Source: Escherichia coli (GTDB taxonomy: Bacteria > Pseudomonadota > Gammaproteobacteria > Enterobacterales > Enterobacteriaceae). Taken from it: DNA of 64,000 bases. The notes beneath the pieces are model-generated. The model searched no databases and was not told where the DNA came from. It was given only the letters and a program-made list of their open reading frames with translations. The stretch lies in NCBI RefSeq assembly GCF_003790525.1, contig NZ_CP033635.1; one strand, given 5' to 3'. Positions 1 to 44,126 of this stretch are shown in pieces; position 1 is the first letter of the stretch; every line of letters starts with the position of its first letter. A program made the position numbers and the translations under genes.

Positions 1-809
<809 letters not shown>

Positions 810-826
810 TAGGCCAGCACCATACC

Positions 827-854
827 TGATAAAACGCTCGCTGCGTTTTATCAG
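827..854. terminator. Bidirectional hairpin between convergent dtpD and phr
   Basis: Inverted repeat CTGATAAAACG...CGTTTTATCAG between the two stop codons. Confidence 0.6.
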
Positions 855-2269
855 GCTCCTTTCCTCGCTTCTTCGTACGCTGCCAGCGTTCGCAGCCTTG
901 CCTCTTTGTGATCAACTATCGGTTGCGGATAATCCAGCGTCACACCTGCTTTCTGCGCCCACTTCCACGGCTCATGCACCACTTTCCCTGGCACATCGCG
1001 CAGTTCCGGTAGCCACTGGCGGATAAACTCGCCTTCGCGGTCAAATTTCTCGCCCTGGGTTGTCGGGTTAAAAATACGAAAATACGGCGCTGCATCGGTT
1101 CCGGTTGAAGCGGCCCACTGCCAGCCACCGTTATTGGCTGCCAAATCACCATCAATCAGCTGCGACATGAAATATCGCTCACCTTCGCGCCAGTCGATCA
1201 ATAAATCTTTCACCAAAAAACTGGCTGTAATCATCCGTAGCCGGTTATGCATCCAGCCAGTGCTGTTAAGCTGACGCATGGCAGCATCAACAATCGGGTA
1301 TCCCGTTTTGCCTTCCTGCCAGGCCTTTAAATGCGCGGAATTGCTCTGCCACTGCACGCGGTCGGTCCAGACAATAAACGGACGATGTTTACACAGCGAG
1401 GGGTAATACGTTATCAGATGACGGTAAAACTCGCGCCAGATCAGCTCATTAAGCCAGATACTACCGGCCCCACCGTCCAGCGCCTGCGGCTGTTCCGCCA
1501 ACAGGCGATGCAAACACTGGCGAGGCGATAACCCGCCCGTTGCCAGGCTGGCGGACAAACGGCTGGTGCCTTCTACCGCAGGGAAATCTCGCTGTTGCTC
1601 ATACTCTCCGGCACCGTTCTGGCAAAACTGGCGTAATTGCGCAATCGCCGCTTTCTCTTCCACCGGGAAATGCGCAGTATCGAAAGGCTGACGAGGATAA
1701 TTCAGCGTAATGGATGGCGCGGGATCTATCGATCCGCTACTACGTACTTTTGGCGCAGCGACGCACTCCGGCATCCCTTCTCGCAGCCGTTTAAGCCAGG
1801 CGTTTTTAAATGGCGTAAAGACTTTGTACATCTCATGATTGCCAGTCATCACCGCCCCCGGCGGCAGGATCACGCCGTCGTCAAATCCTTCACACACCAC
1901 GTTACGCAGCGCCCTCTCAGCCTGCACATCCCGCGCCCGCTCATTCACCTCATACTGATAGTTATAAAACAGATGGGTAACACGATTTTCCGCGCACACC
2001 TGTTTAACTATTTCGACGCTGGCGGCAAAGTCATCCACTTCATGAAACAGCAAAGGAATGCCTTTTTCCGCCAGCGCGATTTGTAGCCCGTTCAGTTGTG
2101 CATTGATAAATTCAGCCTGACGCGGCGACATATTATGCGCCGCCCACTGGCGTGGGGTAGCGATATACAACGCCAGCACGCGCACAGACGAATTGCGGCA
2201 GGCGGCAGCCAGCGCGAGATTATCGTGCTGACGTAAATCCTGGCGAAACCAGACCAGATGGGTAGTCAT
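851..2269 (-). CDS. phr: Deoxyribodipyrimidine photolyase
   Basis: 472 aa ORF, N-terminus MTTHLVWFRQDLR, photolyase/FAD-binding C-terminal region; start overlaps ybgA stop (ATGA). Confidence 0.95.
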   Translation of the reverse strand: MTTHLVWFRQDLRQHDNLALAAACRNSSVRVLALYIATPRQWAAHNMSPRQAEFINAQLNGLQIALAEKGIPLLFHEVDDFAASVEIVKQVCAENRVTHLFYNYQYEVNERARDVQAERALRNVVCEGFDDGVILPPGAVMTGNHEMYKVFTPFKNAWLKRLREGMPECVAAPKVRSSGSIDPAPSITLNYPRQPFDTAHFPVEEKAAIAQLRQFCQNGAGEYEQQRDFPAVEGTSRLSASLATGGLSPRQCLHRLLAEQPQALDGGAGSIWLNELIWREFYRHLITYYPSLCKHRPFIVWTDRVQWQSNSAHLKAWQEGKTGYPIVDAAMRQLNSTGWMHNRLRMITASFLVKDLLIDWREGERYFMSQLIDGDLAANNGGWQWAASTGTDAAPYFRIFNPTTQGEKFDREGEFIRQWLPELRDVPGKVVHEPWKWAQKAGVTLDYPQPIVDHKEARLRTLAAYEEARKGA

Positions 2270-2775
2270 AAAACTCCTGAATGGCGCAAGTTAATCACAC
2301 ACGGCCAAAGTTCGAAATAACGCTGCACTGAAAGCCAGGCGTCAGGATAAAGCGCCATATAGTGTTTGATACGCATCAGCGGCGCAAGAAGTGGTTGCTC
2401 GCCACGGCGATAACTGTCGATAAGCGCAGCCAGCTGCTGGCGTTCTGTGGAATCAATATGAGGGCGAAAATAACCCTGAACGTGCATCAAAACGTTAGTA
2501 TGATCACGCCGGTTGGCAGGGTGAGAAAGCAAAACAATTACGCGTTGGCGGTACTGGTTGTAATAGTCATCCAGATTTTGCCACTGGTGAATATCAGCCA
2601 CAAACGGGCCAAGTTTGCGGTACTCGGGCTGGGAATGGGCCAGAAAGACGAGTTTATAGCGGCTGTGATAATCGAGAAGCGCCCCGCGCGTTAGTCCTCG
2701 ATCTTTGAGATTGTGTAACTCATGCAAAGCAAAAATGCGGATAAGGGTGCTGTCATCAAAAAGTTGTTGATTCAT
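2266..2775 (-). CDS. ybgA: DUF1722 protein YbgA, co-transcribed with phr
   Basis: 169 aa ORF matching E. coli YbgA; 4-bp overlap with phr start. Confidence 0.9.
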   Translation of the reverse strand: MNQQLFDDSTLIRIFALHELHNLKDRGLTRGALLDYHSRYKLVFLAHSQPEYRKLGPFVADIHQWQNLDDYYNQYRQRVIVLLSHPANRRDHTNVLMHVQGYFRPHIDSTERQQLAALIDSYRRGEQPLLAPLMRIKHYMALYPDAWLSVQRYFELWPCVINLRHSGVL

Positions 2776-2823
2776 TACTGCTCCTGAACGGTTTACAGGA
2801 GTAAGTGTAGACGCCGAAAAAAG

Positions 2824-2854
2824 AAAACCGCCAGCGTTTCCGCTGGCGGTTTTC
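2824..2854. terminator. Rho-independent terminator downstream of ybfA (hairpin flanked by A-run and T-run)
   Basis: AAAACCGCCAGCGTTTCCGCTGGCGGTTTTC: perfect 9-bp stem CCGCCAGCG/CGCTGGCGG with flanking A/T runs. Confidence 0.7.
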
Positions 2855-2875
2855 TTTGAACGTAATATTTAGCAA

Positions 2876-3082
2876 TCAGTAAAAATCACCCGTTGCCTTT
2901 TCGGCCTGATCCATCCACACCGGTTTCTCGCTGGTTTTCGACCAGACGCGGTGCAGGTAGCTGTAAAAGCGGGCGCGGTCTTTCCAGAAAAGCATGAAAG
3001 GCAGCGCCAGAACGCCCGCTGCAACCGCATAAGTACGGCGTAAAAAGATAAGCCATGCAGGATATTCTCTGTAGAGTTCCAT
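2876..3082 (-). CDS. ybfA: Small DUF2517 protein YbfA
   Basis: 68 aa [19 protein letters not shown]..., divergent from kdp promoter as in E. coli. Confidence 0.85.
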
Positions 3083-3294
3083 ACTTTTCTCCCCCTTTTG
3101 TATCTACCCGGTGAATGGCACCGGAAAAATGAATTTGTTTATCTGATGAAAATAGTACCGCCTTTTGTGTAATTTTACTACTCATCCGACCACTTATTTT
3201 TGTTTATTGATGGTTTATTTACATTCACTGTGTAATTAAGTTACACAAAAGTTAAATTAATACTAACCATTAGTTAAATCATGGCTTTTGCCAT

Positions 3295-3321
3295 TTTTAT
3301 ACTTTTTTTACACCCCGCCCG
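3295..3321 (+). promoter_or_regulatory. KdpE response-regulator binding site upstream of kdpFABC promoter
   Basis: TTTTTATACTTTTTTTACACCCCGCCCG, matches the T-rich/CCCCGCCC KdpE operator known from E. coli. Confidence 0.65.
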
Positions 3322-3328
3322 CAGATTT

Positions 3329-3360
3329 TTGCGAAATCTTTGCAGCCAGAATTCTACCCT
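3329..3360 (+). promoter_or_regulatory. Probable kdpFABC core promoter (TTGCGA ... TACCCT)
   Basis: -35-like TTGCGA and -10-like TACCCT downstream of KdpE site, about 35 bp upstream of kdpF GTG; exact spacing uncertain. Confidence 0.4.
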
Positions 3361-3394
3361 TCCGATATCACTTTTAGGCCACTGGAGGTGCACT

Positions 3395-3484
3395 GTGAGT
3401 GCAGGCGTGATAGCCGGCGTGTTGCTGGTGTTTTTATTACTGGGTTATCTGGTTTATGCCCTGATCAATGCGGAGGCGTTCTGA
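3395..3484 (+). CDS. kdpF: KdpF, 29-aa membrane subunit of Kdp K+-ATPase (GTG start)
   Basis: GTG AGT GCA GGC... encodes [29 protein letters not shown]; stop TGA overlaps kdpA ATG; too short for ORF track. Confidence 0.85.
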
Positions 3485-5157
3485 TGGCTGCGCAAGGGTT
3501 CTTACTGATTGCCACGTTTTTACTGGTGTTAATGGTGCTGGCACGTCCTTTAGGCAGCGGGCTGGCGCGGCTGATTAATGATATTCCTCTTCCTGGCACG
3601 ACGGGCGTTGAACGCGTACTCTTTAGCGCGCTTGGCGTCTCTGACCGCGAGATGAACTGGAAGCAGTATCTCTCTGCCATTCTCGGCCTGAACATGCTGG
3701 GGCTGGCGGTGCTGTTTTTTATGTTGCTCGGTCAGCACTATCTGCCGCTTAATCCACAGCAGTTGCCAGGGCTGTCATGGGATCTGGCGCTGAATACCGC
3801 CGTCAGCTTTGTCACCAATACCAACTGGCAATCTTATAGCGGTGAAACCACGTTGAGCTATTTCAGCCAGATGGCGGGCTTAACGGTGCAAAACTTTCTT
3901 TCTGCCGCCAGCGGGATTGCGGTGATTTTTGCCTTCATCCGTGCATTTACCCGCCAGAGCATGAGCACACTCGGGAATGCCTGGGTCGATCTGCTACGCA
4001 TCACGTTATGGGTGCTAGTCCCTGTGGCGTTGTTGATCGCACTGTTTTTTATTCAACAAGGTGCGCTGCAAAACTTTCTGCCCTATCAGGCGGTGAATAC
4101 CGTTGAAGGAGCGAAACAGCTGTTACCAATGGGTCCGGTGGCTTCTCAGGAAGCGATCAAGATGCTCGGCACTAACGGTGGTGGCTTCTTTAATGCCAAC
4201 TCGTCGCATCCATTTGAAAACCCAACCACACTGACCAACTTCGTGCAGATGCTGGCGATCTTCTTGATCCCAACAGCGCTGTGCTTTGCCTTTGGTGAAG
4301 TGGCGGGCGATCGCCGCCAGGGGCGCATGTTGCTGTGGGCGATGTCAGTGATTTTTGTCATCTGCGTAGGCGTAGTGATGTGGGCAGAAGTTCAGGGTAA
4401 TCCTCATCTGCTGGCGCTCGGCGCGGACAGCAGCATCAATATGGAAGGTAAAGAGAGCCGTTTCGGCGTGCTGGTCAGTAGCCTGTTTGCGGTCGTGACT
4501 ACGGCGGCTTCCTGCGGCGCGGTGATTGCGATGCATGATTCGTTTACCGCTCTTGGTGGCATGGTGCCGATGTGGTTGATGCAAATTGGTGAAGTGGTAT
4601 TCGGCGGCGTCGGTTCCGGCCTTTACGGCATGATGCTGTTTGTCCTGCTGGCGGTGTTTATTGCCGGGCTGATGATTGGTCGTACACCGGAATATCTGGG
4701 TAAAAAAATCGACGTACGCGAGATGAAACTGACTGCACTGGCGATTCTGGTCACCCCGACGCTGGTGCTGATGGGCGCGGCTCTGGCAATGATGACCGAC
4801 GCCGGACGTAGCGCCATGCTCAACCCTGGCCCGCATGGTTTTAGCGAAGTGCTGTACGCCGTGTCGTCCGCCGCTAACAACAACGGCAGCGCCTTTGCCG
4901 GATTAAGCGCCAACTCTCCGTTCTGGAACTGTTTACTGGCGTTCTGCATGTTTGTCGGTCGCTTCGGGGTGATTATCCCGGTGATGGCGATTGCCGGTTC
5001 GCTGGTGAGTAAAAAGAGCCAGCCCGCCAGCTCCGGTACACTGCCTACGCACGGCCCGCTGTTTGTTGGCCTGTTAATCGGCACCGTGTTGCTGGTTGGC
5101 GCACTGACCTTTATCCCTGCCCTGGCGCTTGGTCCGGTGGCGGAATATCTCTCCTGA
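3484..5157 (+). CDS. kdpA: Kdp K+-transporting ATPase subunit A
   Basis: 557 aa starting [14 protein letters not shown]; polytopic; ORF-track start 3340 is an upstream in-frame extension. Confidence 0.95.
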
Positions 5158-5179
5158 TGATATTGAGTGAGCACTGAAT

Positions 5180-7228
5180 ATGAGTCGTAAACAACTGGCG
5201 CTATTCGAACCAACACTTGTCGTTCAGGCGCTGAAAGAAGCGGTGAAAAAATTAAACCCGCAGGCGCAATGGCGCAATCCGGTGATGTTTATCGTCTGGA
5301 TCGGCAGTCTGCTGACCACCTTTATTAGCATCGCAATGGCAAGCGGCGCGATGCCTGGCAATGCGCTGTTTAGCGCGGCAATTAGCGCATGGCTGTGGGT
5401 CACCGTACTGTTCGCTAATTTCGCCGAGGCGCTGGCTGAAGGCCGCAGTAAAGCGCAGGCCAACAGTCTGAAAGGTGTAAAAAAAACCGCCTTTGCCCGC
5501 AAGCTGCGTGAGCCGAAATATGGCGCTGCGGCGGACAAAGTACCTGCCGATCAACTGCGTAAAGGCGATATCGTACTGGTAGAAGCTGGCGATATTATCC
5601 CCTGCGATGGTGAAGTTATTGAAGGGGGGGCATCGGTCGATGAAAGCGCCATCACCGGGGAATCGGCACCGGTGATCCGTGAATCCGGCGGCGATTTTGC
5701 CTCCGTCACTGGCGGTACGCGTATTCTTTCTGACTGGCTGGTGATTGAGTGCAGCGTTAACCCCGGCGAGACATTTCTGGATCGGATGATCGCGATGGTG
5801 GAAGGCGCGCAGCGACGCAAAACGCCAAACGAGATTGCCCTGACCATTCTCCTGATTGCCCTGACTATCGTCTTTTTACTGGCAACCGCCACGCTGTGGC
5901 CGTTTTCCGCGTGGGGCGGTAATGCAGTCAGCGTAACGGTACTGGTGGCGCTGCTGGTCTGTCTGATCCCAACGACCATTGGCGGTCTGTTGTCAGCGAT
6001 CGGCGTCGCCGGGATGAGTCGGATGCTGGGCGCGAATGTGATTGCCACCAGCGGACGTGCAGTTGAAGCGGCAGGTGACGTTGACGTTCTGCTACTGGAT
6101 AAAACCGGCACCATCACACTTGGTAACCGTCAGGCGTCGGAGTTTATCCCTGCGCAGGGCGTGGATGAAAAAACGCTGGCTGACGCCGCACAACTGGCTT
6201 CGCTGGCTGATGAAACGCCGGAAGGCCGCAGTATTGTGATCCTCGCCAAGCAGCGTTTTAACCTGCGTGAGCGCGATGTGCAGTCGCTTCACGCCACCTT
6301 TGTACCGTTTACTGCGCAAAGCCGGATGAGCGGGATCAACATCGACAACCGCATGATCCGTAAAGGTTCTGTCGATGCCATTCGCCGCCATGTTGAGGCT
6401 AACGGCGGTCACTTCCCTGCCGACGTCGATCAAAAAGTCGATCAGGTTGCGCGTCAGGGAGCCACGCCGCTGGTGGTGGTGGAAGGTTCTCGTGTGCTGG
6501 GCGTTATTGCGCTGAAAGATATCGTCAAAGGCGGTATTAAAGAGCGCTTCGCCCAACTGCGCAAAATGGGCATTAAAACGGTGATGATTACCGGTGATAA
6601 CCGTCTGACTGCCGCCGCGATAGCTGCGGAAGCGGGTGTCGATGATTTTCTCGCCGAAGCGACACCGGAGGCCAAGCTGGCATTGATTCGTCAGTATCAG
6701 GCGGAAGGCCGTTTGGTGGCGATGACCGGCGACGGCACCAACGATGCTCCGGCGCTGGCGCAGGCAGATGTCGCGGTGGCGATGAACTCTGGTACTCAGG
6801 CGGCGAAAGAAGCGGGCAATATGGTGGATCTCGACTCCAACCCGACCAAGTTGATCGAGGTGGTACATATTGGCAAACAGATGCTGATGACCCGTGGCTC
6901 GCTGACCACCTTCAGCATTGCCAACGATGTGGCGAAATACTTCGCCATTATTCCGGCGGCGTTCGCGGCAACGTATCCGCAGTTAAATGCGCTGAACATC
7001 ATGCGCCTGCATTCGCCCGACTCCGCCATTCTCAGTGCGGTGATTTTCAACGCCTTGATTATCGTCTTTTTGATTCCCCTGGCGTTAAAAGGCGCGAGTT
7101 ATAAACCGCTTACCGCTTCTGCCATGTTGCGCCGTAACTTATGGATTTACGGTCTGGGTGGGCTGCTGGTGCCGTTTATTGGTATCAAAGTCATTGATTT
7201 ACTGCTAACCGTTTGCGGTCTGGTGTGA
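5180..7228 (+). CDS. kdpB: Kdp K+-transporting P-type ATPase subunit B
   Basis: 682 aa; P-type ATPase motifs [17 protein letters not shown]. Confidence 0.95.
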
Positions 7229-22466: not shown

Positions 22467-23873
22467 TCAGAAGATGGTGAATGGTGCGATTACCATAAAT
22501 TTCACGTCACGCTCATCCTGGAAGATGTTGCCGTAACCACCGCCCCAGCTTGGGATGTCGGAGTGGTTGTCGTATTCGGTGAAGTGCAGTTTGAACATCG
22601 TGCCTTTGGCGCGACCGTCCTGAATGGTGTACACCGCATCCAGGCTGTAGGCAGACTCTTCAATAGTCCGGTTTTTATCGTAGTACGCATCCGGATTGCT
22701 CTGCCAGGTCGCAGGTTTAGCATCCCATGCGTAAACGTAGGAAGCGCCGATGGCGAAGCCTGGAAGATTCCAGTTTTTCAGGTCATACATCGCACCGAAG
22801 AAGATCGCTTTTTCGCCGTTGGCGTTGAAGTCGGAACGGTTATCCCACCAGATATCCAGGCGACCGTTCGAGGAAGCGTAGGTTGGAGTCATACGTTGCA
22901 GGAAGTATCCCTGCTGACCGTCAGCCTTAACCCAGGTACCTTCGAGGCGCAAATCCACTACGTCAGCCGCCCGGTAACCAAAGGTCAACGCCTGCAGCCA
23001 GGCGGTGCCGTCATAAAGATCGTTGACGCTGCGATCGTCAACTTTATCGCGCGTACCATAGAACTGGTAGCTGGTGGTTAACGGGCTACCGGCGATATCA
23101 AATTTGTAGCTGGCTTTGGCAAAATATTGATCGATATACCCTTCGGCCTGACCAAACGCCGCTTCCAGTACGAAGTTATTTTTGAAGTCGTACTTCGCCC
23201 CAAGGGAGTGTAGATAATCAACTTTGGTGGTTTTATCGTTCTGATAAAACTCATCCATTTCCAGATGCCACGGTGCTTTGTATTCGTTGGTCCACATGTA
23301 GGAGAAACTCAACGCACCAGCATCGCCATAATCAAAATTCGCCCCGGCTTCCGCCCCCTGATAAGTACCCGGCATAAAGCTCCAGTGCGGCGCTAACAGC
23401 GTTTGACCAGTTGGCTGAATGTAACCTGCCCTCGCCCAAACCGGACCGTATTTAAATTTAGCCGCCGCTTTATACAGACTTATACCGCTTTTATCGCCGG
23501 ACCAGTCTTCGTCATAGGCTTTATTACTTTTTGAAAACGCGATTTCGTTCGGGTGAGAGCTGTCGCCGTTTTCTGCCATTTCAATCGCTGTAAACGCGGC
23601 AATATCCAGACCGAACATATCAGCGGCATAGCCAGACTGAAAATCGAGATTAGCGTTCCAGGTGGAGTGAGAAAGGTTGGTTTTATATTTGTCGCCGTCG
23701 GTAACATCTTTACGGTCGCGTTCACGCTGCCAGTAATAGATACCGCCGGTTAAGGTTGAATCGTCGATGAATCCTTCGGCGCGAGCCTCCGGAATTGCCA
23801 TAAAGCCCGACATAGCTGTAACACCGGCGATAGCCAGCGCCAGCGTACTACGTTTGCCACTAAACGCACGCAT
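22467..23873 (-). CDS. chiP: Chitooligosaccharide porin ChiP (YbfM), OprD-like outer-membrane barrel
   Basis: 468 aa with signal peptide, aromatic-rich beta-barrel sequence, C-terminal F. Confidence 0.9.
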
Positions 23874-24224
23874 GGGTTAATCCTCTTTGACGTATAAATT
23901 GCTGCACCAAAGGTGAACAGCGAAAAAAATAAAAATTAAAAAAGTAGCGTTGAGAAAAGTCTCGCTGACTACAGGAACAGACTATTTTTCGCGACGCGAA
24001 TTATCAATCTCTTTCTGTAACCAGAATGTAATAACATGAGCAACCGCACATATTTTGATGATTTTTGTTACAAGGCTTAAGTTTGCAGTTGAAAGGCTTG
24101 CAGAAGAATAAAAACGTGAAATTCCAGCAAGATGAAAGCGGTTACATTTTATTTAATTATGATTTGTAATTTTAAATTTGCTTTATGAATAAATTACGAA
24201 GCGGAATTAATTCGCGAAGAAAAG

Positions 24225-24314: not shown

Positions 24315-25979
24315 TTACTCGCCTACTTTCGCCCAGGTATCACGCAGCCCAACGGTGCGGTTAAATACCGGTTTTTCCGCCGTAGAATGGCGGCTGTCGA
24401 GGCAGAAGTAACCTTCACGCTCAAACTGGAATGCTTTACCCGCAACCGCATCTTTCAGCGACGGTTCAGCAAAGCCCTGTTTGATCACCAGCGATTCCGG
24501 GTTAATCACCGACAGGAAATCATCCGCAGCACCAGGGTTCGGCACGCTGAACAGACGGTCATACAAACGGATTTCAACCGGCAGCGCATGTGCCGCGCTC
24601 ACCCAGTGAATAACACCTTTGACTTTACGACCATCTGCCGGATCTTTGCTTAAGGTGTCGGCGTCATAAGTACAGAAGATGGTGGTGATATTGCCTTCGG
24701 CATCTTTCTCCACGCGTTCTGCCTTAATGACGTAAGCATTACGCAGACGCACTTCTTTACCCAGCACCAGACGTTTGTACTGCTTGTTAGCTTCTTCGCG
24801 GAAATCGGCGCGATCGATCCAAATCTCACCGCTAAATGGCACCTGGCGGCTGCCCATTTCCGGTTTATTCGGATGGTTCGGCATGGTAACCATTTCGCCT
24901 TCGCCCTGGTAGTTTTCGATAACCAGTTTCACCGGATCGATAACCGCCATTGCGCGCGGCGCATTTTCGTTGAGATCTTCACGGATGCAGGATTCCAGCG
25001 ACGCCATCTCAATGGTGTTGTCCTGCTTGGTCACGCCGATGCGTTTGCAGAACTCACGAATAGAAGCTGCAGTGTAACCACGACGACGCAGACCGGAAAT
25101 GGTCGGCATACGCGGGTCATCCCAGCCTTCAACGTGCTTGTCGGTCACCAGCAGGTTCAGCTTACGCTTGGACATCACAGTGTATTCCAGATTCAGGCGC
25201 GAGAATTCGTACTGGCGCGGGTGAACAGGAATGGTGATGTTGTCCAGCACCCAGTCGTACAGGCGACGGTTGTCCTGGAACTCAAGCGTACACAGAGAGT
25301 GCGTAATACCTTCCAGCGCATCGCTGATGCAGTGGGTAAAGTCGTACATCGGGTAGATGCACCACTTGTTGCCAGTCTGGTGGTGTTCAGCAAACTTAAT
25401 GCGGTACAGCACCGGATCGCGCATCACGATAAACGGCGAAGCCATGTCGATCTTCGCACGCAGGCAGGCTTTACCTTCTTCAAAACCGCCGGTACGCATT
25501 TTCTCGAACAGCGCCAGGTTCTCTTCAACGCTGCGATCGCGGTACGGGCTGTTTTTACCCGGCTGCGTCAGGGTGCCACGGTATTCGCGGATCTGTTCCG
25601 GTGTCAGTTCATCAACGTACGCCAGGCCTTTATTGATCAGTTCGATCGCATAGGCGTGGAGCTGATCAAAATAATCGGAGGAGTAACGGACGTTACCAGA
25701 CCAGTGAAAACCTAACCACTCAACGTCGTTTTTGATCGACTCAACATACTCGATATCTTCTTTTACCGGGTTAGTGTCGTCGAAACGCAGGTTGCACTGG
25801 CCTTTATAGTCCTGGGCGATCCCGAAGTTCAGGCAGATAGATTTCGCATGGCCAATATGCAGATAGCCATTCGGCTCCGGCGGGAAACGGGTGTGTACTG
25901 TGGTGTGCTTACCACTGGCCAGATCTTCATCGATGATCTGACGAATAAAGTTAGTCGGGCGGGCTTCTGCCTCACTCAT
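24315..25979 (-). CDS. glnS: Glutaminyl-tRNA synthetase
   Basis: 554 aa; class I HIGH motif ([12 protein letters not shown]) and KMSKS-like VMSKR. Confidence 0.95.
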
Positions 25980-26096
25980 CGTGGATTCCTCAAAGCGTAA
26001 ACAACGTATAACGGCGTATGATCTTATAAGCGGGACAGGCTGACAACTGTTAGTTAGTGAAAATCGACAATCTCACTGAGATTATGGGGATTATTG

Positions 26097-26132
26097 ATGA
26101 AAAAAAAAGCGGCAGAGAAGATCTCCACCGCT
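26097..26132 (-). terminator. Probable nagE terminator
   Basis: Imperfect hairpin GCGGCAGAGA...TCTCCACCGC with T-run on minus strand. Confidence 0.4.
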
Positions 26133-26138
26133 TGTCAT

Positions 26139-26172
26139 TGTTGGATGCGACGCTCAAGCGTCGCATCAGGCA
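26139..26172. repeat. REP element downstream of nagE
   Basis: TGTTGGATGCGACGCTCAAGCGTCGCATCAGGCA. Confidence 0.6.
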
Positions 26173-26181
26173 TAAAGAAGA

Positions 26182-28128
26182 TTACTTTTTGATTTCATAC
26201 AGCGGCGTTTGACCCGCCACGACATGGCCCTGAGCTTTAATGATCAAGCCGCTGAAATCGTCGATATTGCTGCAAACCACCGGGCTAATCATCGAGCGGG
26301 CGTTTTCGTTCAGATAATCCAGATCCATTTCCAGAATCGGTTGCCCTGCGCTTACTTGCGCGCCCTCTTCCACCAGACGTTTAAAGCCTTTACCTTCCAG
26401 CGCTACGGTGTCGATACCCATATGGACGACAATCTCCGCGCCTTTTTCAGTTTCCAGGCAGAATGCGTGGTTGGTGTTGAAGATTTTCACGATAGTCCCT
26501 GCGGCTGGTGATACGACGATTTTATCTGTCGGTTTCACCGCCACACCGTCACCCACCGCTTTGCTGGCGAATGCTTCGTCAGGAACCTGATCCAGTGCCA
26601 CAACATCACCGGTAATCGGCGATACCAGCTCCGCGATAGATACTGCGTTTGGTACAGCCTGCGGTTTTGCTACAGGCGCGGCAGTTGCCGGAGCAGTTTC
26701 AGCAGAGGCAGCGGCTACCGGACCGCGGGCAACGACTTTCTTCATCGCATCGCCGATGGATTCTGCTTTCGCGCCAACAATCACCTGAATAGTCTGTTTG
26801 TTCAGTTTCACTACCCCAGAAGCACCCAGACGTTTACACATCGTATCGTTAACGCGGGCAGAGTCAGCCACTGTAAGGCGCAGACGGGTGATACAGGCGT
26901 CAATTGCTTTCAGGTTGTCAGTGCCGCCAACCGCAGCAATATAGTTGGTTGCCAGTTGATTGAGACCTTCTTCAGTATTGCTGTTAGCCTCTTCAGTAAC
27001 GATCTCGTCTTCTTTATCTTCACGACCTGGCGTTTTCAGGTTGAACATGCGGATAACCAAACTGAACACCACGAAGTAGATAGCGAAGAAGACAACCCCC
27101 ATCACCAGCAGCATCCAGACGTTCTGGCTGGCGGCCGGCAGGTTATACATCAACGCGTAGTCGATAGCCCCCGCAGAGAAAGAGAAGCCGGCATGGATAC
27201 CCAGCAACGTTGCCACAAACAGGCTGATACCGGTCAGCAGTGCGTGCAGGAGGTACAGCAGCGGTGCAAGGAACATGAACAGGAATTCCAGCGGCTCAGT
27301 CACACCGGTCAGGAACGCAGTAACAGCAACAGAAAGCAGCATCCCGCCAACCATCGGACGGCGCTCTTTCGGTGCTGCAAAGTACATCGCCAGCGCCGCA
27401 CCCGGCAGACCGAACATCATGATCGGGAAGAAGCCGGACATGAACATCCCCGCGGTGCCGTCACCGGCATAGAAGCGGTTGATGTCACCGTGAAAAACCG
27501 TACCCGCCGCGTTGGTGAATTCACCAATCTGGAACCAGGCGATGGTGTTCAGTACCTGATGCAGACCGGTTGGGATCAGCAGACGGTTGATGAAACCAAA
27601 GATACCGGAACCCAGCGCGCCCGCAGAAACGATCCACTCGCCGCCTGCATGGATAGCGTGCTGTACCGGCGGCCAGACGTAACCAAAAATGGCCGCCAGC
27701 ACCAGGCAGAAGAAGCCGGTGGCAATCGGCACAAAGCGTTTGCCGCCGAAGAAACTCAGGAAGTCCGGCAGTTTAATATCGGACCAACGGTTATAAGCTG
27801 CGCCACCAACCAGACCGGTAATGATACCCGCCAGTACACCCATGTTAATTTCTGGGTTGATGGTCACCATCGCTTTGGTTAACACAAAGTAACCTACCGC
27901 ACCCGCCAGTGCCGCCGCACCTGCGCTGTCTTTCGACCAGCTGGATGCCACACCGATGGCGAAGATTAATGCGAGGTTATCAAAAATCGCACCGCCCGCC
28001 TGGGCAATAAACGCAACGTTAAGTAAATCTGGCTGACCGAATCGCAGCAACAGCGCCGCCACCGGCAGCACCGCGATAGGGAGCTGTAACGCCCTACCGA
28101 GTCGCTGGAAAAAACCTAAAATATTCAT
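26182..28128 (-). CDS. nagE: PTS N-acetylglucosamine-specific EIICBA
   Basis: 648 aa; EIIC membrane domain, EIIB Cys region, EIIA C-terminus. Confidence 0.95.
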   Translation of the reverse strand: MNILGFFQRLGRALQLPIAVLPVAALLLRFGQPDLLNVAFIAQAGGAIFDNLALIFAIGVASSWSKDSAGAAALAGAVGYFVLTKAMVTINPEINMGVLAGIITGLVGGAAYNRWSDIKLPDFLSFFGGKRFVPIATGFFCLVLAAIFGYVWPPVQHAIHAGGEWIVSAGALGSGIFGFINRLLIPTGLHQVLNTIAWFQIGEFTNAAGTVFHGDINRFYAGDGTAGMFMSGFFPIMMFGLPGAALAMYFAAPKERRPMVGGMLLSVAVTAFLTGVTEPLEFLFMFLAPLLYLLHALLTGISLFVATLLGIHAGFSFSAGAIDYALMYNLPAASQNVWMLLVMGVVFFAIYFVVFSLVIRMFNLKTPGREDKEDEIVTEEANSNTEEGLNQLATNYIAAVGGTDNLKAIDACITRLRLTVADSARVNDTMCKRLGASGVVKLNKQTIQVIVGAKAESIGDAMKKVVARGPVAAASAETAPATAAPVAKPQAVPNAVSIAELVSPITGDVVALDQVPDEAFASKAVGDGVAVKPTDKIVVSPAAGTIVKIFNTNHAFCLETEKGAEIVVHMGIDTVALEGKGFKRLVEEGAQVSAGQPILEMDLDYLNENARSMISPVVCSNIDDFSGLIIKAQGHVVAGQTPLYEIKK

Positions 28129-28246
28129 CTTATTCCCCCTACGAGAACCCTATTTGGCTCGTTTAAAGCCGTATTTTTATTTTGCTGCAAATTGTACTGC
28201 CGATGTTCTGTAATCAGATTGTTAGATCATCTGCTACAGAGTGTGT

Positions 28247-28370
28247 GAAAATTTAATTCGTATCGCAAATTAAACGCGTGTCTTTTGTGAGTTTTGTCAC
28301 CAAATATCGTTATCATCACTCCCTTTTACTGGCTAAACCAGAAAACTTATTTTATCATTCAAAAAATCAG
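28247..28370. promoter_or_regulatory. nagE/nagB divergent control region: CRP site flanked by two candidate NagC operators
   Basis: CRP-like TGTGAgttttgTCAC at 28286..28300; palindromic TTTAATTCGTATCGCAAATTAAA at 28251..28273; AT-rich TTATTTTATCATTCAAAAAATCA near 28346..28368. Confidence 0.45.
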
Positions 28371-28460
28371 GTCGGATTGACGCCTGTCTGCGCAAATCCA
28401 GGTTACGCTTAAAGATGCCTAATCCGCCAACGGCTTACATTTTACTTATTGAGGTGAATA

Positions 28461-30469
<2,009 letters not shown>

Positions 30470-30477
30470 GAGAAAGT

Positions 30478-31698
30478 ATGACACCAGGCGGACAAGCTCA
30501 GATAGGTAATGTTGATCTCGTAAAACAGCTTAACAGCGCGGCGGTTTATCGCCTGATTGACCAGTACGGGCCAATCTCGCGGATTCAGATTGCCGAGCAA
30601 AGTCAGCTTGCCCCCGCCAGCGTAACCAAAATTACGCGTCAGCTTATCGAACGCGGGCTGATCAAAGAAGTTGATCAGCAGGCCTCCACCGGGGGCCGCC
30701 GCGCTATCTCTATCGTCACCGAAACCCGCAATTTCCACGCAATCGGCGTACGGCTTGGTCGTCACGACGCCACCATCACTCTGTTTGATCTTAGTAGCAA
30801 AGTGCTGGCAGAAGAACATTACCCGCTGCCGGAACGTACCCAGCAGACGCTGGAACATGCCCTGCTGAATGCCATTGCTCAGTTTATTGATAGCTACCAG
30901 CGCAAGCTGCGCGAGCTGATCGCCATTTCCGTGATCCTGCCAGGGCTTGTTGACCCGGACAGCGGTAAAATTCATTACATGCCGCATATTCAGGTGGAAA
31001 ACTGGGGGCTGGTAGAAGCACTGGAAGAGCGTTTTAAAGTGACCTGTTTTGTCGGCCACGATATCCGCAGTCTGGCGCTGGCAGAGCACTACTTCGGTGC
31101 AAGTCAGGATTGCGAAGACTCCATTCTGGTGCGTGTCCATCGCGGAACCGGGGCCGGGATTATCTCTAACGGGCGAATTTTTATCGGGCGCAACGGCAAC
31201 GTCGGTGAAATTGGCCATATTCAGGTCGAACCGCTGGGTGAACGCTGCCACTGTGGCAACTTTGGCTGCCTGGAAACTATCGCCGCCAACGCTGCCATTG
31301 AACAACGGGTGTTGAATCTGTTAAAGCAGGGCTACCAGAGCCGCGTGCCGCTGGACGACTGCACCATCAAAACTATCTGCAAAGCCGCGAACAAAGGCGA
31401 TAGCCTGGCGTCGGAAGTGATTGAGTATGTCGGTCGTCATCTGGGCAAAACCATCGCCATTGCCATCAACCTGTTTAACCCGCAAAAGATTGTTATTGCC
31501 GGAGAAATCACCGAAGCCGATAAAGTGCTGCTCCCTGCTATTGAAAGCTGCATTAATACCCAGGCGCTGAAGGCGTTTCGTACTAATCTGCCGGTGGTAC
31601 GTTCTGAGCTGGATCACCGCTCGGCAATCGGCGCTTTTGCGCTGGTAAAACGCGCCATGCTCAACGGTATTTTGCTCCAGCATTTGCTGGAAAATTAA
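30478..31698 (+). CDS. nagC: ROK-family transcriptional repressor NagC
   Basis: 406 aa; N-terminal HTH, ROK sugar-kinase-like domain with CxCGxxGC. Confidence 0.95.
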   Translation: MTPGGQAQIGNVDLVKQLNSAAVYRLIDQYGPISRIQIAEQSQLAPASVTKITRQLIERGLIKEVDQQASTGGRRAISIVTETRNFHAIGVRLGRHDATITLFDLSSKVLAEEHYPLPERTQQTLEHALLNAIAQFIDSYQRKLRELIAISVILPGLVDPDSGKIHYMPHIQVENWGLVEALEERFKVTCFVGHDIRSLALAEHYFGASQDCEDSILVRVHRGTGAGIISNGRIFIGRNGNVGEIGHIQVEPLGERCHCGNFGCLETIAANAAIEQRVLNLLKQGYQSRVPLDDCTIKTICKAANKGDSLASEVIEYVGRHLGKTIAIAINLFNPQKIVIAGEITEADKVLLPAIESCINTQALKAFRTNLPVVRSELDHRSAIGAFALVKRAMLNGILLQHLLEN

Positions 31699-31745
31699 TG
31701 TGCTTTTATAGTGGCGCTTATTGTTGTCAATATTCTGGGTAGTCC

Positions 31746-32498
31746 ATGACCATTAAAAATGTAATTTGCGATATCGACGGCGTGCTGATGCACGATAACG
31801 TCGCCGTACCGGGTGCAGCGGAATTTTTGCACGGGATTATGGATAAAGGCCTGCCGCTGGTGTTGCTGACCAACTATCCTTCGCAGACCGGGCAAGATCT
31901 GGCGAACCGCTTTGCCACTGCGGGTGTCGATGTGCCGGACAGCGTGTTTTATACCTCCGCGATGGCGACCGCCGATTTCCTGCGTCGCCAGGAAGGCAAG
32001 AAAGCGTATGTGGTGGGCGAAGGCGCACTGATTCATGAACTGTACAAAGCCGGTTTCACTATTACCGATGTGAACCCTGATTTTGTGATTGTTGGCGAAA
32101 CGCGTTCCTACAACTGGGACATGATGCATAAAGCAGCCTATTTCGTCGCTAACGGTGCACGCTTTATCGCCACCAACCCGGACACCCACGGGCGCGGTTT
32201 TTATCCGGCCTGTGGCGCGTTGTGTGCAGGCATCGAAAAAATCTCCGGACGTAAACCGTTCTATGTTGGTAAGCCGAGTCCGTGGATCATCCGCGCAGCA
32301 TTAAACAAAATGCAGGCGCATTCGGAAGAAACGGTGATTGTCGGCGATAACTTGCGCACCGACATTCTGGCGGGCTTCCAGGCGGGTCTGGAGACGATTC
32401 TGGTGCTTTCTGGTGTTTCATCGCTCGACGATATCGACAGTATGCCGTTCCGCCCAAGCTGGATTTACCCGTCGGTCGCTGAAATCGACGTTATCTGA
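31746..32498 (+). CDS. nagD: HAD-family UMP phosphatase NagD/UmpH
   Basis: 250 aa; HAD motif I DIDGVL. Confidence 0.9.
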   Translation: MTIKNVICDIDGVLMHDNVAVPGAAEFLHGIMDKGLPLVLLTNYPSQTGQDLANRFATAGVDVPDSVFYTSAMATADFLRRQEGKKAYVVGEGALIHELYKAGFTITDVNPDFVIVGETRSYNWDMMHKAAYFVANGARFIATNPDTHGRGFYPACGALCAGIEKISGRKPFYVGKPSPWIIRAALNKMQAHSEETVIVGDNLRTDILAGFQAGLETILVLSGVSSLDDIDSMPFRPSWIYPSVAEIDVI

Positions 32499-34799: not shown

Positions 34800-34876
34800 G
34801 GCTACGTAGCTCAGTTGGTTAGAGCACATCACTCATAATGATGGGGTCACAGGTTCGAATCCCGTCGTAGCCACCA
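34800..34876 (+). tRNA. metT: tRNA-Met (elongator, CAU)
   Basis: GGCTACGTAGCTCAGTTGGTTAGAGC...CTCATAA...GGTTCGAATCC...CCA; cloverleaf readable. Confidence 0.95.
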
Positions 34877-34884
34877 TCTTTTTT

Positions 34885-34969
34885 GCGGGAGTGGCGAAAT
34901 TGGTAGACGCACCAGATTTAGGTTCTGGCGCCGCAAGGTGTGCGAGTTCAAGTCTCGCCTCCCGCACCA
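34885..34969 (+). tRNA. leuW: tRNA-Leu (UAG), long variable arm
   Basis: GCGGGAGTGGCGAAATTGGTAGACGC...GATTTAGGTTC...CCA, 85 nt. Confidence 0.9.
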
Positions 34970-34992
34970 TTCACCAGAAAGCGTTGTACGGA

Positions 34993-35067
34993 TGGGGTAT
35001 CGCCAAGCGGTAAGGCACCGGTTTTTGATACCGGCATTCCCTGGTTCGAATCCAGGTACCCCAGCCA
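34993..35067 (+). tRNA. glnU: tRNA-Gln (UUG)
   Basis: TGGGGTATCGCCAAGCGGTAAGGCACCGGTTTTTGATACCGG...CCA. Confidence 0.9.
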
Positions 35068-35101
35068 TCTTCTTCGAGTAAGCGGTTCACCGCCCGGTTA
35101 T

Positions 35102-35176
35102 TGGGGTATCGCCAAGCGGTAAGGCACCGGTTTTTGATACCGGCATTCCCTGGTTCGAATCCAGGTACCCCAGCCA
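35102..35176 (+). tRNA. glnW: tRNA-Gln (UUG), second copy
   Basis: Identical to the preceding tRNA-Gln(UUG). Confidence 0.9.
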
Positions 35177-35191
35177 TCGAAGAAACAATCT

Positions 35192-35268
35192 GGCTACGTA
35201 GCTCAGTTGGTTAGAGCACATCACTCATAATGATGGGGTCACAGGTTCGAATCCCGTCGTAGCCACCA
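35192..35268 (+). tRNA. metU: tRNA-Met (elongator, CAU), second copy
   Basis: Identical to metT copy. Confidence 0.95.
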
Positions 35269-35316
35269 AATTCTGAATGTGTCGAATATGTTCGGCAAAT
35301 TCAAAAACCAATTTGT

Positions 35317-35391
35317 TGGGGTATCGCCAAGCGGTAAGGCACCGGATTCTGATTCCGGCATTCCGAGGTTCGAATCCTCGTACCCCAGCCA
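35317..35391 (+). tRNA. glnV: tRNA-Gln (CUG)
   Basis: TGGGGTATCGCCAAGCGGTAAGGCACCGGATTCTGATTCCGG...CCA; anticodon CTG. Confidence 0.9.
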
Positions 35392-35428
35392 ATTTATTCA
35401 AGACACTTACCTTGTAAGTGCACCCAGT

Positions 35429-35503
35429 TGGGGTATCGCCAAGCGGTAAGGCACCGGATTCTGATTCCGGCATTCCGAGGTTCGAATCCTCGTACCCCAG
35501 CCA
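35429..35503 (+). tRNA. glnX: tRNA-Gln (CUG), second copy
   Basis: Identical to glnV copy. Confidence 0.9.
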
Positions 35504-43048: not shown

Positions 43049-43957
43049 ATGCAATTACGTAAACCTGCCACAGCAATCCTGGCCCTGGCGCTTTCCGCAG
43101 GACTGGCACAGGCAGATGACGCCGCCCCGGCAGCAGGCAGTACGCTGGACAAAATCGCCAAAAACGGTGTGATTGTCGTCGGTCACCGTGAATCTTCAGT
43201 ACCTTTCTCTTATTACGACAATCAGCAAAAAGTGGTGGGTTACTCGCAGGATTACTCCAACGCCATTGTTGAAGCAGTGAAAAAGAAACTCAACAAACCG
43301 GACTTGCAGGTGAAATTGATTCCGATCACCTCACAAAACCGTATTCCGCTGCTGCAAAACGGCACTTTCGATTTTGAATGTGGTTCTACCACCAACAACG
43401 TCGAACGCCAAAAACAGGCGGCTTTCTCCGACACTATTTTCGTGGTCGGTACGCGCCTGCTGACAAAAAAAGGCGGCGATATTAAAGATTTTGCCGATCT
43501 GAAAGACAAAGCCGTCGTAGTCACTTCCGGCACCACCTCTGAAGTTTTGCTCAACAAACTGAATGAAGAGCAAAAAATGAACATGCGCATCATCAGCGCC
43601 AAAGATCACGGTGACTCTTTCCGTACCCTGGAAAGCGGTCGTGCCGTTGCCTTTATGATGGATGATGCTCTGCTGGCTGGTGAACGTGCGAAAGCGAAGA
43701 AACCAGACAACTGGGAAATCGTCGGCAAGCCGCAGTCTCAGGAAGCCTACGGTTGCATGTTGCGTAAAGACGATCCGCAGTTCAAAAAGCTGATGGATGA
43801 CACTATCGCTCAGGTGCAGACCTCCGGTGAAGCGGAAAAATGGTTTGATAAATGGTTCAAAAACCCAATTCCGCCGAAAAACCTGAACATGAATTTCGAA
43901 CTGTCGGACGAAATGAAAGCACTGTTCAAAGAACCGAATGACAAGGCACTGAACTAA
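43049..43957 (+). CDS. gltI: Glutamate/aspartate periplasmic binding protein
   Basis: 302 aa from MQLRKPATAILALALSAGLAQA (signal peptide); ORF-track start 42974 is an extension through the 5' UTR. Confidence 0.9.
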   Translation: MQLRKPATAILALALSAGLAQADDAAPAAGSTLDKIAKNGVIVVGHRESSVPFSYYDNQQKVVGYSQDYSNAIVEAVKKKLNKPDLQVKLIPITSQNRIPLLQNGTFDFECGSTTNNVERQKQAAFSDTIFVVGTRLLTKKGGDIKDFADLKDKAVVVTSGTTSEVLLNKLNEEQKMNMRIISAKDHGDSFRTLESGRAVAFMMDDALLAGERAKAKKPDNWEIVGKPQSQEAYGCMLRKDDPQFKKLMDDTIAQVQTSGEAEKWFDKWFKNPIPPKNLNMNFELSDEMKALFKEPNDKALN

Positions 43958-44113
43958 TTACAAGAACCAGGGGCGGAAATTCCAGCCCTCTCGATTGTTA
44001 CGTAGCACGGACAGACTATACGCCTGATGGTCGTTCCCCATCGGGCCTGAAAACCGCAATACGCTGGGTAACAATCTTCGAGGGTAGCAGTTAACGCTGC
44101 TACCCTCTTTTTT
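43958..44113 (+). ncRNA. sroC: SroC sRNA region (gltI-gltJ intergenic, processed from gltIJKL mRNA)
   Basis: 169-bp intergenic region ending in strong hairpin GAGGGTAGCAG-ttaac-GCTGCTACCCTC plus TTTTTT at 44081..44113; 5' boundary not determinable from sequence. Confidence 0.5.
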
Positions 44114-44126
44114 CTGGAGTAGATTT

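What the first reader, a model, noticed from the sequence alone, without database searches (positions are those of the whole stretch)
28247..28370. Divergent nagE/nagB control region with CRP site between two AT-rich palindromes
Seen in sequence: TGTGA-N6-TCAC at 28286..28300 is flanked by TTTAATTCGTATCGCAAATTAAA (28251..28273) and a second AT-rich element near 28346..28368. Established knowledge: NagC represses nagE and nagBACD by looping between two operators flanking a CRP site. Exact operator boundaries are inferred, not verified.
Basis: partly seen in the sequence, partly recalled or inferred. Interest (0 to 1): 0.2.

Follow-up and report, generated by a model that had tools for sequence, protein, structure and literature searches.

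The report
E. coli nagE–nagB control region
This is the well-studied switch between the E. coli genes for importing and breaking down the sugar N-acetylglucosamine: two repressor (NagC) sites flank an activator (CRP) site. It is ordinary and already explained.

Summary
The element is textbook.

- **Location.** The window is E. coli chromosome. The 332-bp gap at 28129-28460 separates nagE (-) from nagBACD (+).
- **Operators.** Both 23-mers match the published NagC operators letter for letter. The nagB operator lies at 28346-28368, exactly as reported.
- **CRP site.** The core TGTGAGTTTTGTCAC is at 28286-28300, between the operators.
- **Geometry.** Operator centres are 94 bp apart, about nine helical turns. 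The CRP centre is 30.5 bp from the nagE operator and 63.5 bp from the nagB operator.
- **Chance.** A NagC matrix built only from sites outside this window ranks the two operators 2nd and 3rd of 64 kb. No simulated spacer out of 5000 gave such a phased pair.
- **Conservation.** All 103 Enterobacterales species examined keep the two sites 93-95 bp apart. In 92 of them the CRP core sits at the same offset. Flanks, the CRP spacer and the leader length vary freely.
- **Correction.** Only the nagE operator is a good palindrome. The nagB operator is a weak dyad.

Novelty: already known. Interest is low.

The parts
28252..28274 (.). NagC operator of nagE (OE). It is the weak operator, with A/T at positions +/-11. 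Its centre is 28263, and it overlaps the inferred nagE -35.
   Evidence: The reverse complement is identical to the published 'nagE' NagC site. There is one exact match in the window. It has perfect 7-nt inverted arms. It ranks 2nd in the window by an independent matrix. TT/AA at +/-5,6 is kept in 103/103 species, and A/T at +/-11 in 102/103.
28283..28304 (.). cAMP-CRP (CAP) site. The 22-bp footprint-sized site is TTTTGTGAGTTTTGTCACCAAA. The core TGTGA-N6-TCAC is at 28286-28300 and the centre is 28293.5.
   Evidence: Exact core match. TGTGA and TCAC are at least 97% conserved in 90 unique species sequences, while the N6 spacer varies. The core sits at +30.5 from the OE centre with one mismatch to TGTGA-N6-TCACA in 92/103 species. 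CAP binding at nagE-B is the subject of Plumbridge & Kolb 1991 (cited; not read).
28346..28368 (.). NagC operator of nagB (OB). It is the strong operator, with C at -11 and +11. Its centre is 28357, and it covers the inferred nagB -10 and start point.
   Evidence: Identical to the published 'nagB' NagC site. It ranks 3rd in the window by an independent matrix. TT/AA at +/-5,6 is kept in 103/103 species, C at -11 in 102/103, and C/G at +11 in 95/103.
28330..28358 (+). Inferred nagB promoter: -35 TGGCTA at 28330-28335, a 17-bp spacer, -10 TATCAT at 28353-28358, and a start near 28365. That start would put CRP at about -71.5.
   Evidence: This is inferred from the sequence. CTGGCT at 28328-28333 is a conserved block outside the operators. 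The consensus promoter scan does not report it, as expected for an activator-dependent promoter. The start site was not verified here.
28240..28268 (-). Inferred nagE promoter: -35 TTGCGA at 28268-28263 (inside OE), a 17-bp spacer, -10 CACACT at 28245-28240, and a start near 28232. That start would put CRP at about -61.5.
   Evidence: This is inferred from the sequence and from the class I CRP spacing rule. It is a poor match to consensus and was not found by the scan. The start site was not verified here.
26182..28128 (-). nagE, the GlcNAc-specific PTS transporter IIABC. It is a controlled gene.
   Evidence: NF007608 at 1447.8 bits against a cutoff of 1010. RefSeq annotates it as nagE.
28461..32498 (+). 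The nagBACD operon, which is the controlled unit: nagB 28461-29261, nagA 29321-30469, nagC 30478-31698 (the repressor itself) and nagD 31746-32498.
   Evidence: NCBIfam equivalogs are above cutoff for all four genes. RefSeq annotation agrees.

Best explanation
This is the divergent nagE / nagBACD control region of E. coli.

**Repression.** When N-acetylglucosamine (GlcNAc) is absent, the ROK-family repressor NagC, encoded by the third gene of the operon it controls, binds two 23-bp operators. The strong operator covers the nagB promoter (28346-28368). The weak one covers the nagE -35 (28252-28274). The operator centres are 94 bp apart, about nine helical turns, so the two bound NagC units can contact each other and loop out the DNA between them. 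That cooperativity lets the weak nagE operator be occupied, and both promoters are shut together.

**Activation.** One cAMP-CRP site (core 28286-28300) lies inside the loop. It activates both weak promoters from class I-type positions, inferred as about -61.5 for nagE and -71.5 for nagB.

**Induction.** GlcNAc-6-phosphate, made when GlcNAc enters through NagE, releases NagC from the DNA.

**Shown versus inferred.** Shown here are the sequence identity to the published operators, the geometry, the statistical excess and the deep conservation of sites and spacing. Taken from papers read are looping, the weak/strong operator distinction and the inducer. Inferred or recalled are the transcription start positions, CRP class I activation and CRP's contribution to loop stability.
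For: - **Locus identity.** The region is 100% identical in E. coli genomes and present in 5424 of 5426. The genes are nagE, nagB, nagA, nagC and nagD.
- **Operators.** They are identical to the published NagC sites.
- **Published mechanism.** The nagE operator is weak, has A/T at +/-11, and is repressed only through a loop to the strong nagB operator. TT/AA at +/-5,6 is invariant and essential (PMC4288165). PMC5401889 says two sites and looping are needed at nagE-B. PMC8964723 and PMC10634360 name GlcNAc-6P as the inducer that removes NagC.
- **Independent matrix.** It ranks the two sites 2nd and 3rd in 64 kb. None of 5000 simulated spacers gave a phased pair.
- **Conservation.** In 103/103 Enterobacterales species the two best NagC hits upstream of nagB are 93-95 bp apart, and 93 of them are exactly 94 bp apart. 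The CRP half-sites are at least 97% conserved, while the N6 spacer, the flanks and the leader length (92-270 bp from the OB centre to the start codon) vary. The strong/weak signature at +/-11 is kept across species.
- **No RNA family** was found in the spacer.
Against: - Nothing found contradicts the model.
- The primary footprinting, looping and bending papers could not be opened. The exact CRP footprint, the start sites and the claim that CRP helps the loop are therefore not verified from text here.
- The promoter scan finds no sigma-70 consensus match for either gene, so the promoter hexamers I give are weak, inferred matches.
- The CRP core pattern alone is not statistically rare (0.5 expected per window). 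Its support comes from position and conservation.
- The nagB operator scores only moderately with the small matrix (14 bits), although it is described as the high-affinity site. The matrix is built from few sites.
Confidence: 0.96

Rival explanations
1. The left-hand element (28252-28274) is physiologically an Mlc operator rather than a NagC operator, so nagE would belong to the glucose (Mlc) regulon.
For: The site has A/T at +/-11, which is the Mlc signature. [quoted passage not shown] This A/T signature is conserved in 102/103 species.
Against: [quoted passage not shown] It also reports that, with the nagB operator present, the site is preferentially regulated by NagC. The fixed 93-95 bp spacing to a C/G-flanked NagC-type operator in every species fits pairing with NagC at the nagB operator.
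Confidence: 0.02
2. The two NagC sites act independently, each blocking its own promoter by simple occlusion. Looping plays no part, and the CRP site between them is a separate feature.
For: Each operator overlaps its own inferred promoter elements, so occlusion alone could in principle work.
Against: The wild-type nagE operator alone is not regulated by NagC without the nagB operator (PMC4288165). Spacing is held to 93-95 bp in 103/103 species, while the neighbouring distance to the nagB start codon ranges from 92 to 270 bp. This argues for a constraint on the inter-operator distance itself.
Confidence: 0.02
3. The AT-rich elements are chance features of an AT-rich promoter region (UP elements or -10-like runs), not protein-binding sites.
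For: The spacer is 38% G+C. A third NagC-like match at 28441-28463 (11.2 bits) shows that such matches can arise by chance here. It is not conserved: only 4 of 119 loci score at least 10 at that place, against a median of 2.4.
Against: The sites are identical to experimentally defined operators. None of 5000 simulations gave a phased pair. Conservation is position-specific, covering dyad positions rather than general AT-richness.
Confidence: 0.005

Closest known systems
The E. coli K-12 nagE-nagBACD regulatory region itself (Plumbridge & Kolb 1991, 1993, 1998; Plumbridge 2001)
   Same: It is the same locus. Both operators are letter-identical to the published sites, the genes are the same, and the single CRP site sits between the operators.
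   Different: Nothing of substance differs. The window is the reverse complement of K-12 orientation and comes from another strain. PMC4288165 writes '-11A,+11T' for the nagE operator, whereas the sequence reads T at -11 and A at +11 on either strand. This is a difference of notation only.
Other two-operator NagC targets (glmUS, chbBCARFG, fimB), and the chiP site at 23983-24005 in this same window
   Same: They share the 23-bp quasi-palindrome with TT/AA at +/-5,6 and mostly C/G at +/-11, and they need two cooperating sites.
   Different: Operator spacing and outcome differ. At glmUS NagC activates. At chb a second regulator, ChbR, is also needed. For chiP only one site appears in the list I used.
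Repression loops with an activator or bending protein inside: gal (GalR with HU), lac (O1-O3 with CRP) and araBAD (AraC with CRP)
   Same: Two operators are bridged by one repressor species, repression depends on helical phase, and a DNA-bending protein binds inside a loop of about 100 bp. This comparison is from general knowledge and was not tested here.
   Different: The repressor is from the ROK family, not LacI/GalR or AraC. A single loop silences two divergent promoters at once, and the CRP site serves both.
Mlc operators (ptsG, manXYZ, ptsHI)
   Same: The sequence logo is nearly indistinguishable from the NagC logo. The nagE operator carries the Mlc-type A/T at +/-11.
   Different: Mlc does not regulate nagE at physiological levels, and discrimination is made by the linker 'wing' of the protein at +/-11.

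Membership tests
NagC operator (E. coli NagC/Mlc-type 23-bp site) | A 23-bp quasi-palindrome with invariant TT at -6,-5 and AA at +5,+6 around the centre of symmetry (PMC4288165) | tested here: met
   OE is TTTAA-TT-CGTATCGC-AA-ATTAAA and OB is CTTAT-TT-TATCATTC-AA-AAAATC. The feature is kept in 103/103 species for both sites.
NagC operator (E. coli NagC/Mlc-type 23-bp site) | High-affinity NagC sites have C or G at +/-11. The nagE operator is the documented exception, with A/T there. | tested here: met
   OB has C at both ends and OE has T and A. Across species, OB has C at -11 in 102/103 and C/G at +11 in 95/103, and OE has A/T at both ends in 102/103.
NagC operator (E. coli NagC/Mlc-type 23-bp site) | Sequence identity to an experimentally defined NagC-binding site | tested here: met
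   Both 23-mers are identical to the entries 'nagE' and 'nagB' in Table 1 of PMC3098098.
NagC operator (E. coli NagC/Mlc-type 23-bp site) | Physical binding of NagC (footprint or gel shift) and release by GlcNAc-6-P | not testable with these tools
   This has been reported in the literature (the Plumbridge & Kolb papers cited, and a control footprint mentioned in PMC5401889). It cannot be repeated here.
NagC repression loop at nagE-B | Two operators on the same face of the helix (an integral number of turns apart), each overlapping one of the divergent promoters | tested here: met
   The centres at 28263 and 28357 are 94 bp apart, or 8.95 turns at 10.5 bp per turn (computed). Spacing is 93-95 bp in 103/103 species. 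The overlap with promoters rests on inferred hexamers.
NagC repression loop at nagE-B | The cognate repressor gene nagC is present in the locus | tested here: met
   The ORF at 30478-31698 matches NF047937 TransRegNagC at 719 bits against a cutoff of 650.
NagC repression loop at nagE-B | Repression lost on half-turn insertions and restored by full-turn insertions | not testable with these tools
   This is the subject of Plumbridge & Kolb 1993 (title cited). The paper is not held.
cAMP-CRP binding site | A match to TGTGA-N6-TCACA within a 22-bp dyad | tested here: met
   TGTGAGTTTTGTCACc matches 9 of 10 core positions. The half-sites are at least 97% conserved across 90 unique species sequences, while N6 varies.
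cAMP-CRP binding site | Class I position (centre near -61.5, -71.5 and so on) relative to a mapped transcription start | tested here: inconclusive
   The centre at 28293.5 gives -61.5 and -71.5 only if the starts are at about 28232 and 28365. I inferred those starts from weak hexamers. No start-site data could be retrieved.
cAMP-CRP binding site | cAMP-dependent binding and activation | not testable with these tools
   Reported in Plumbridge & Kolb 1991 (title cited). The paper was not read.

The most novel reading that the evidence does not exclude
The locus itself is fully known. The most novel reading the data allow concerns how rigidly the module is conserved.

- **Fixed module.** The whole unit of weak operator, 30.5 bp, CRP, 63.5 bp and strong operator is held fixed across at least 103 Enterobacterales species. 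This is so even though the nagE gene behind it belongs to two lineages only 59% identical (32 and 67 loci).
- **Conserved CRP asymmetry.** The CRP site keeps the same asymmetry everywhere: TCAC followed by C or T, never the consensus A.
- **Extra conserved bases.** A/G-rich bases just outside the CRP core (CAAA 28301-28304, G 28277) are also conserved.

Together these could mean that the loop needs a specific CRP orientation or bend geometry, or a further unrecognised contact, beyond what has been described.
Probability: 0.1. Interest if true: 0.3.

Novelty: already known. Interest (0 to 1): 0.06.

Why it matters
It matters only as a positive control. A reader working from raw sequence placed a classic regulatory module correctly to within one base. 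The locus is one of the founding examples of repression by DNA looping with an activator site inside the loop. The comparative result obtained here shows how strongly the loop geometry is constrained: spacing is fixed at 93-95 bp in 103 species, the weak/strong operator asymmetry is conserved, and the module is unchanged in front of two divergent nagE lineages. This does not change the accepted model.

Tried and rejected
1. **Primary papers.** I tried to open the primary papers by DOI or PMC id: NAR 2001 29:506, J Bacteriol 2008, NAR 1998 26:1254, J Bacteriol 1996 and EMBO J 1995. None is held.
2. **CRP-site string search.** A full-text search for the CRP-site string returned only antibody-hinge primer sequences.
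3. **CRP position searches.** Searches for '61.5' together with nagE, and for 'cAMP CAP' together with NagC and nagE, returned nothing useful (one search was a syntax error). Start sites and CRP positions therefore remain inferred.
4. **Promoter scan.** The consensus scan found no nagE or nagB promoter. Its only hit is a match at 28434-28462 that overlaps the nagB ribosome-binding site and start codon, which I regard as chance.
5. **Third NagC-like site.** A match at 28441-28463 over the nagB start codon was considered as a third operator. I rejected it because it is not conserved: only 4 of 119 loci score at least 10 there, against a median of 2.4.
6. **RNA element.** An RNA element in the spacer was considered. 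Rfam gives only a sub-threshold chance hit to a yeast snoRNA model.
7. **Inverted repeat I1.** The repeat at 28263-28290 bridges the nagE operator and the CRP half-site at 76% complementarity. I treat it as a by-product of two adjacent dyads, not a separate element.
8. **Vibrio loci.** The nine Vibrio loci from the same scan do not share the architecture. Their spacings are 114-158 bp and they have no CRP core between the sites. I left them out of the conservation counts.

Full report
**What is in the sequence**

The window is E. coli chromosome. A 381-bp query around the finding is 100% identical in many complete E. coli genomes and is present in 5424 of 5426. The annotated features under it are nagE and nagB.

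The ORFs and NCBIfam equivalog models give the following genes:

| Gene | Coordinates | Strand |
|---|---|---|
| glnS | 24315-25979 | - |
| nagE | 26182-28128 | - |
| nagB | 28461-29261 | + |
| nagA | 29321-30469 | + |
| nagC | 30478-31698 | + |
| nagD | 31746-32498 | + |

The divergent spacer at 28129-28460 is 332 bp and 38% G+C.

**Checking the observation**

The string TTTAATTCGTATCGCAAATTAAA occurs once, at 28252-28274. TGTGA-N6-TCAC is at 28286-28300 and is the only match in the window. That pattern alone is not rare: 0.5 matches are expected per window, and 33 of 100 shuffles have at least one. Positions 28346-28368 read CTTATTTTATCATTCAAAAAATC.

The left element has perfect 7-nt inverted arms at 28252-28258 and 28268-28274, with 8 of 11 dyad pairs. 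The right element has only 5 of 11. The title's 'two AT-rich palindromes' therefore overstates the second one.

**Identity with published operators**

Table 1 of PMC3098098 lists known NagC sites compiled from El Qaidi & Plumbridge 2008 and from J. Plumbridge. It gives CTTATTTTATCATTCAAAAAATC for nagB and TTTAATTTGCGATACGAATTAAA for nagE. The first equals 28346-28368. The second is the reverse complement of 28252-28274.

**Is it more than chance?**

I built a symmetrised weight matrix from the seven published NagC sites that do not lie in this window. With it, 28252-28274 ranks second (17.3 bits) and 28346-28368 ranks third (14.1 bits) among all positions of the 64-kb window. First is the known chiP/ybfM site at 23983-24005 (a similar result).

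I then ran 5000 first-order Markov simulations of the AT-rich spacer. Of these, 93 reached the lower score once and 7 reached the higher score. None produced two sites 8, 9 or 10 turns apart.

**Geometry**

The operator centres are 28263 and 28357, which is 94 bp or 8.95 turns at 10.5 bp per turn. The CRP centre at 28293.5 is 30.5 bp (2.9 turns) from the nagE operator and 63.5 bp (6.0 turns) from the nagB operator. All three sites are therefore roughly on one face of the helix. These figures are arithmetic. The same-face reading is inference.

**Related sequences**

One scan of the species-representative genome collection used a degenerate pattern for nagB codons 13-21, which is independent of the regulatory DNA. 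It returned 120 loci, all with ATG at the predicted nagB start.

Of the 112 loci with at least 420 nt upstream, nine are Vibrio and have a different layout. Their site spacings are 114-158 bp, and no CRP core lies between the sites.

In all 103 Enterobacterales loci, from Escherichia and Salmonella out to Yersinia, Serratia, Pantoea, Erwinia and Pectobacterium:

- The two best NagC-matrix hits upstream of nagB are 93-95 bp apart, and 93 of them are exactly 94 bp apart.
- A CRP core with one mismatch to TGTGA-N6-TCACA sits exactly 30.5 bp from the left operator centre in 92 loci.
- TT/AA at +/-5,6 is present in 103/103 for both operators.
- The right operator has C at -11 in 102/103 and C or G at +11 in 95/103.
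- The left operator has A or T at both ends in 102/103.

An ungapped stack of 90 unique sequences shows which blocks are conserved. They are the left operator, TGTGA, TCAC plus CAAA, CTGGCT (28328-28333, the inferred nagB -35), and AAAAC plus the right operator. The CRP N6 spacer, the outer flanks and the rest of the loop vary. The distance from the right operator to the nagB start codon ranges from 92 to 270 bp. The fixed inter-operator distance is therefore not simply a lack of indels in the region.

**Mechanism**

From the papers I could read:

- NagC and Mlc recognise very similar quasi-palindromes, whose only invariant positions are TT/AA at +/-5,6.
- High-affinity NagC sites have C/G at +/-11.
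- The nagE operator is unusual in having A/T there. It is not repressed on its own and depends on cooperative binding with the strong nagB operator through a DNA loop (PMC4288165).
- Two sites and looping are required at nagE-B (PMC5401889).
- GlcNAc-6-P is the inducer that removes NagC (PMC8964723; PMC10634360).

The conservation data fit each of these points.

From my own recollection of Plumbridge 1990 and Plumbridge & Kolb 1991, 1993 and 1998, which are not held:

- The CAP site is nearly symmetric.
- nagE depends on it more strongly than nagB does.
- Half-turn insertions between the operators derepress.
- CAP bound inside the loop helps repression as well as activating.

I mark these as recalled, not verified.

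**Promoters**

The consensus scan reports no sigma-70 promoter for either gene, as expected for activator-dependent promoters. Reading the sequence gives these weak, inferred matches:

| Gene | -35 | Spacer | -10 | Inferred start | CRP position |
|---|---|---|---|---|---|
| nagB | TGGCTA (28330-28335) | 17 bp | TATCAT (28353-28358) | near 28365 | -71.5 |
| nagE | TTGCGA (28268-28263, inside the operator) | 17 bp | CACACT (28245-28240) | near 28232 | -61.5 |

These positions are inferred. I could not retrieve start-site data.

**Rivals**

- **Mlc at the left site.** The A/T signature at +/-11 suggests it, but the published lack of cross-regulation argues against it.
- **Independent occlusion without looping.** The inability of the nagE operator to work alone and the fixed spacing argue against it.
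- **Chance.** and the identity exclude it.
- **An RNA element.** Nothing supports it.
- **A third operator.** The NagC-like match over the nagB start codon (28441-28463) is not conserved and is taken as chance.

**Verdict**

The element is the already-known nagE-nagBACD operator-CRP-operator module. Interest is low.

Noticed in passing
L001-L120 (for example L029:5000-6358, L040, L120); compare window 26182-28128: The same conserved operator-CRP-operator module sits in front of two different NagE lineages. 32 loci have the E. coli type, with the N-terminal 120 aa at least 87% identical. 67 loci have a second type, 35-41% identical in that stretch and 58.8% over the full length. The second type still scores above cutoff for the GlcNAc-specific PTS IIBC model TIGR01998. 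Both types occur within genera such as Enterobacter and Klebsiella.
   Followed up: partly
L029 (NZ_JAATUR010000059.1, labelled Escherichia coli strain SCPM-O-B-8794): This 16.9-kb contig has an E. coli-like nagB leader, nagB operator and CRP site, but carries the second-lineage nagE. That nagE DNA has no match in 5426 complete E. coli genomes. It is either a rare recombinant with a junction near the nagE operator or a chimeric or mislabelled assembly.
   Followed up: partly
window 23983-24005 and 24172-24194: The best NagC-matrix hit in the whole window is TATTTTTCGCGACGCGAATTATC. It is the reverse complement of the published 'ybfM proximal' NagC site and lies about 110-130 nt upstream of the 468-aa ORF at 22467-23873 (-). 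I take that ORF to be chiP (ybfM), but did not confirm it with a family search. A weaker NagC-like match lies at 24172-24194.
   Followed up: partly
window 28441-28463: A NagC-like 23-mer, TTTACTTATTGAGGTGAATAATG (11-12 bits, with TT/AA at +/-5,6), overlaps the nagB ribosome-binding site and start codon. It is not conserved in other species, so it is probably chance.
   Followed up: yes
window 28155-28171: A small G+C-rich hairpin followed by a T-run on the + strand (terminator-like) lies inside what would be the nagE leader on the opposite strand. Its significance is unknown and I did not examine it further.
   Followed up: no
window 28277 and 28301-28309: Some bases outside the recognised cores are strongly conserved across about 90 species. 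These are G at 28277 and CAAA at 28301-28304, with TATCG at 28305-28309 more weakly conserved. The right CRP half-site is always TCAC followed by C or T, never the consensus A. This may reflect CRP flank or bend preferences.
   Followed up: partly
window 43953-44115 and 34800-35500: The sroC sRNA matches at 174.8 bits, and there is a cluster of seven tRNA genes downstream of asnB. In the annotated strain the equivalent cluster is Met-Leu-Gln-Gln-Met-Gln.
   Followed up: no
L121 (NZ_AP018784.2, strain SK1144) 162-5994, versus window about 24315-26180: In strain SK1144 the genes next to the 3' end of nagE form a sialidase / SLC13 permease / YhcH / DHDPS-family cluster. In this window glnS follows nagE directly. 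This is a strain-variable insertion point.
   Followed up: no
PMC4288165 text versus window 28252 and 28274: The paper describes the wild-type nagE operator as '-11A,+11T'. The sequence, and the site as listed in PMC3098098, reads T at -11 and A at +11 on either strand. The point that both ends are A/T pairs is unaffected.
   Followed up: yes
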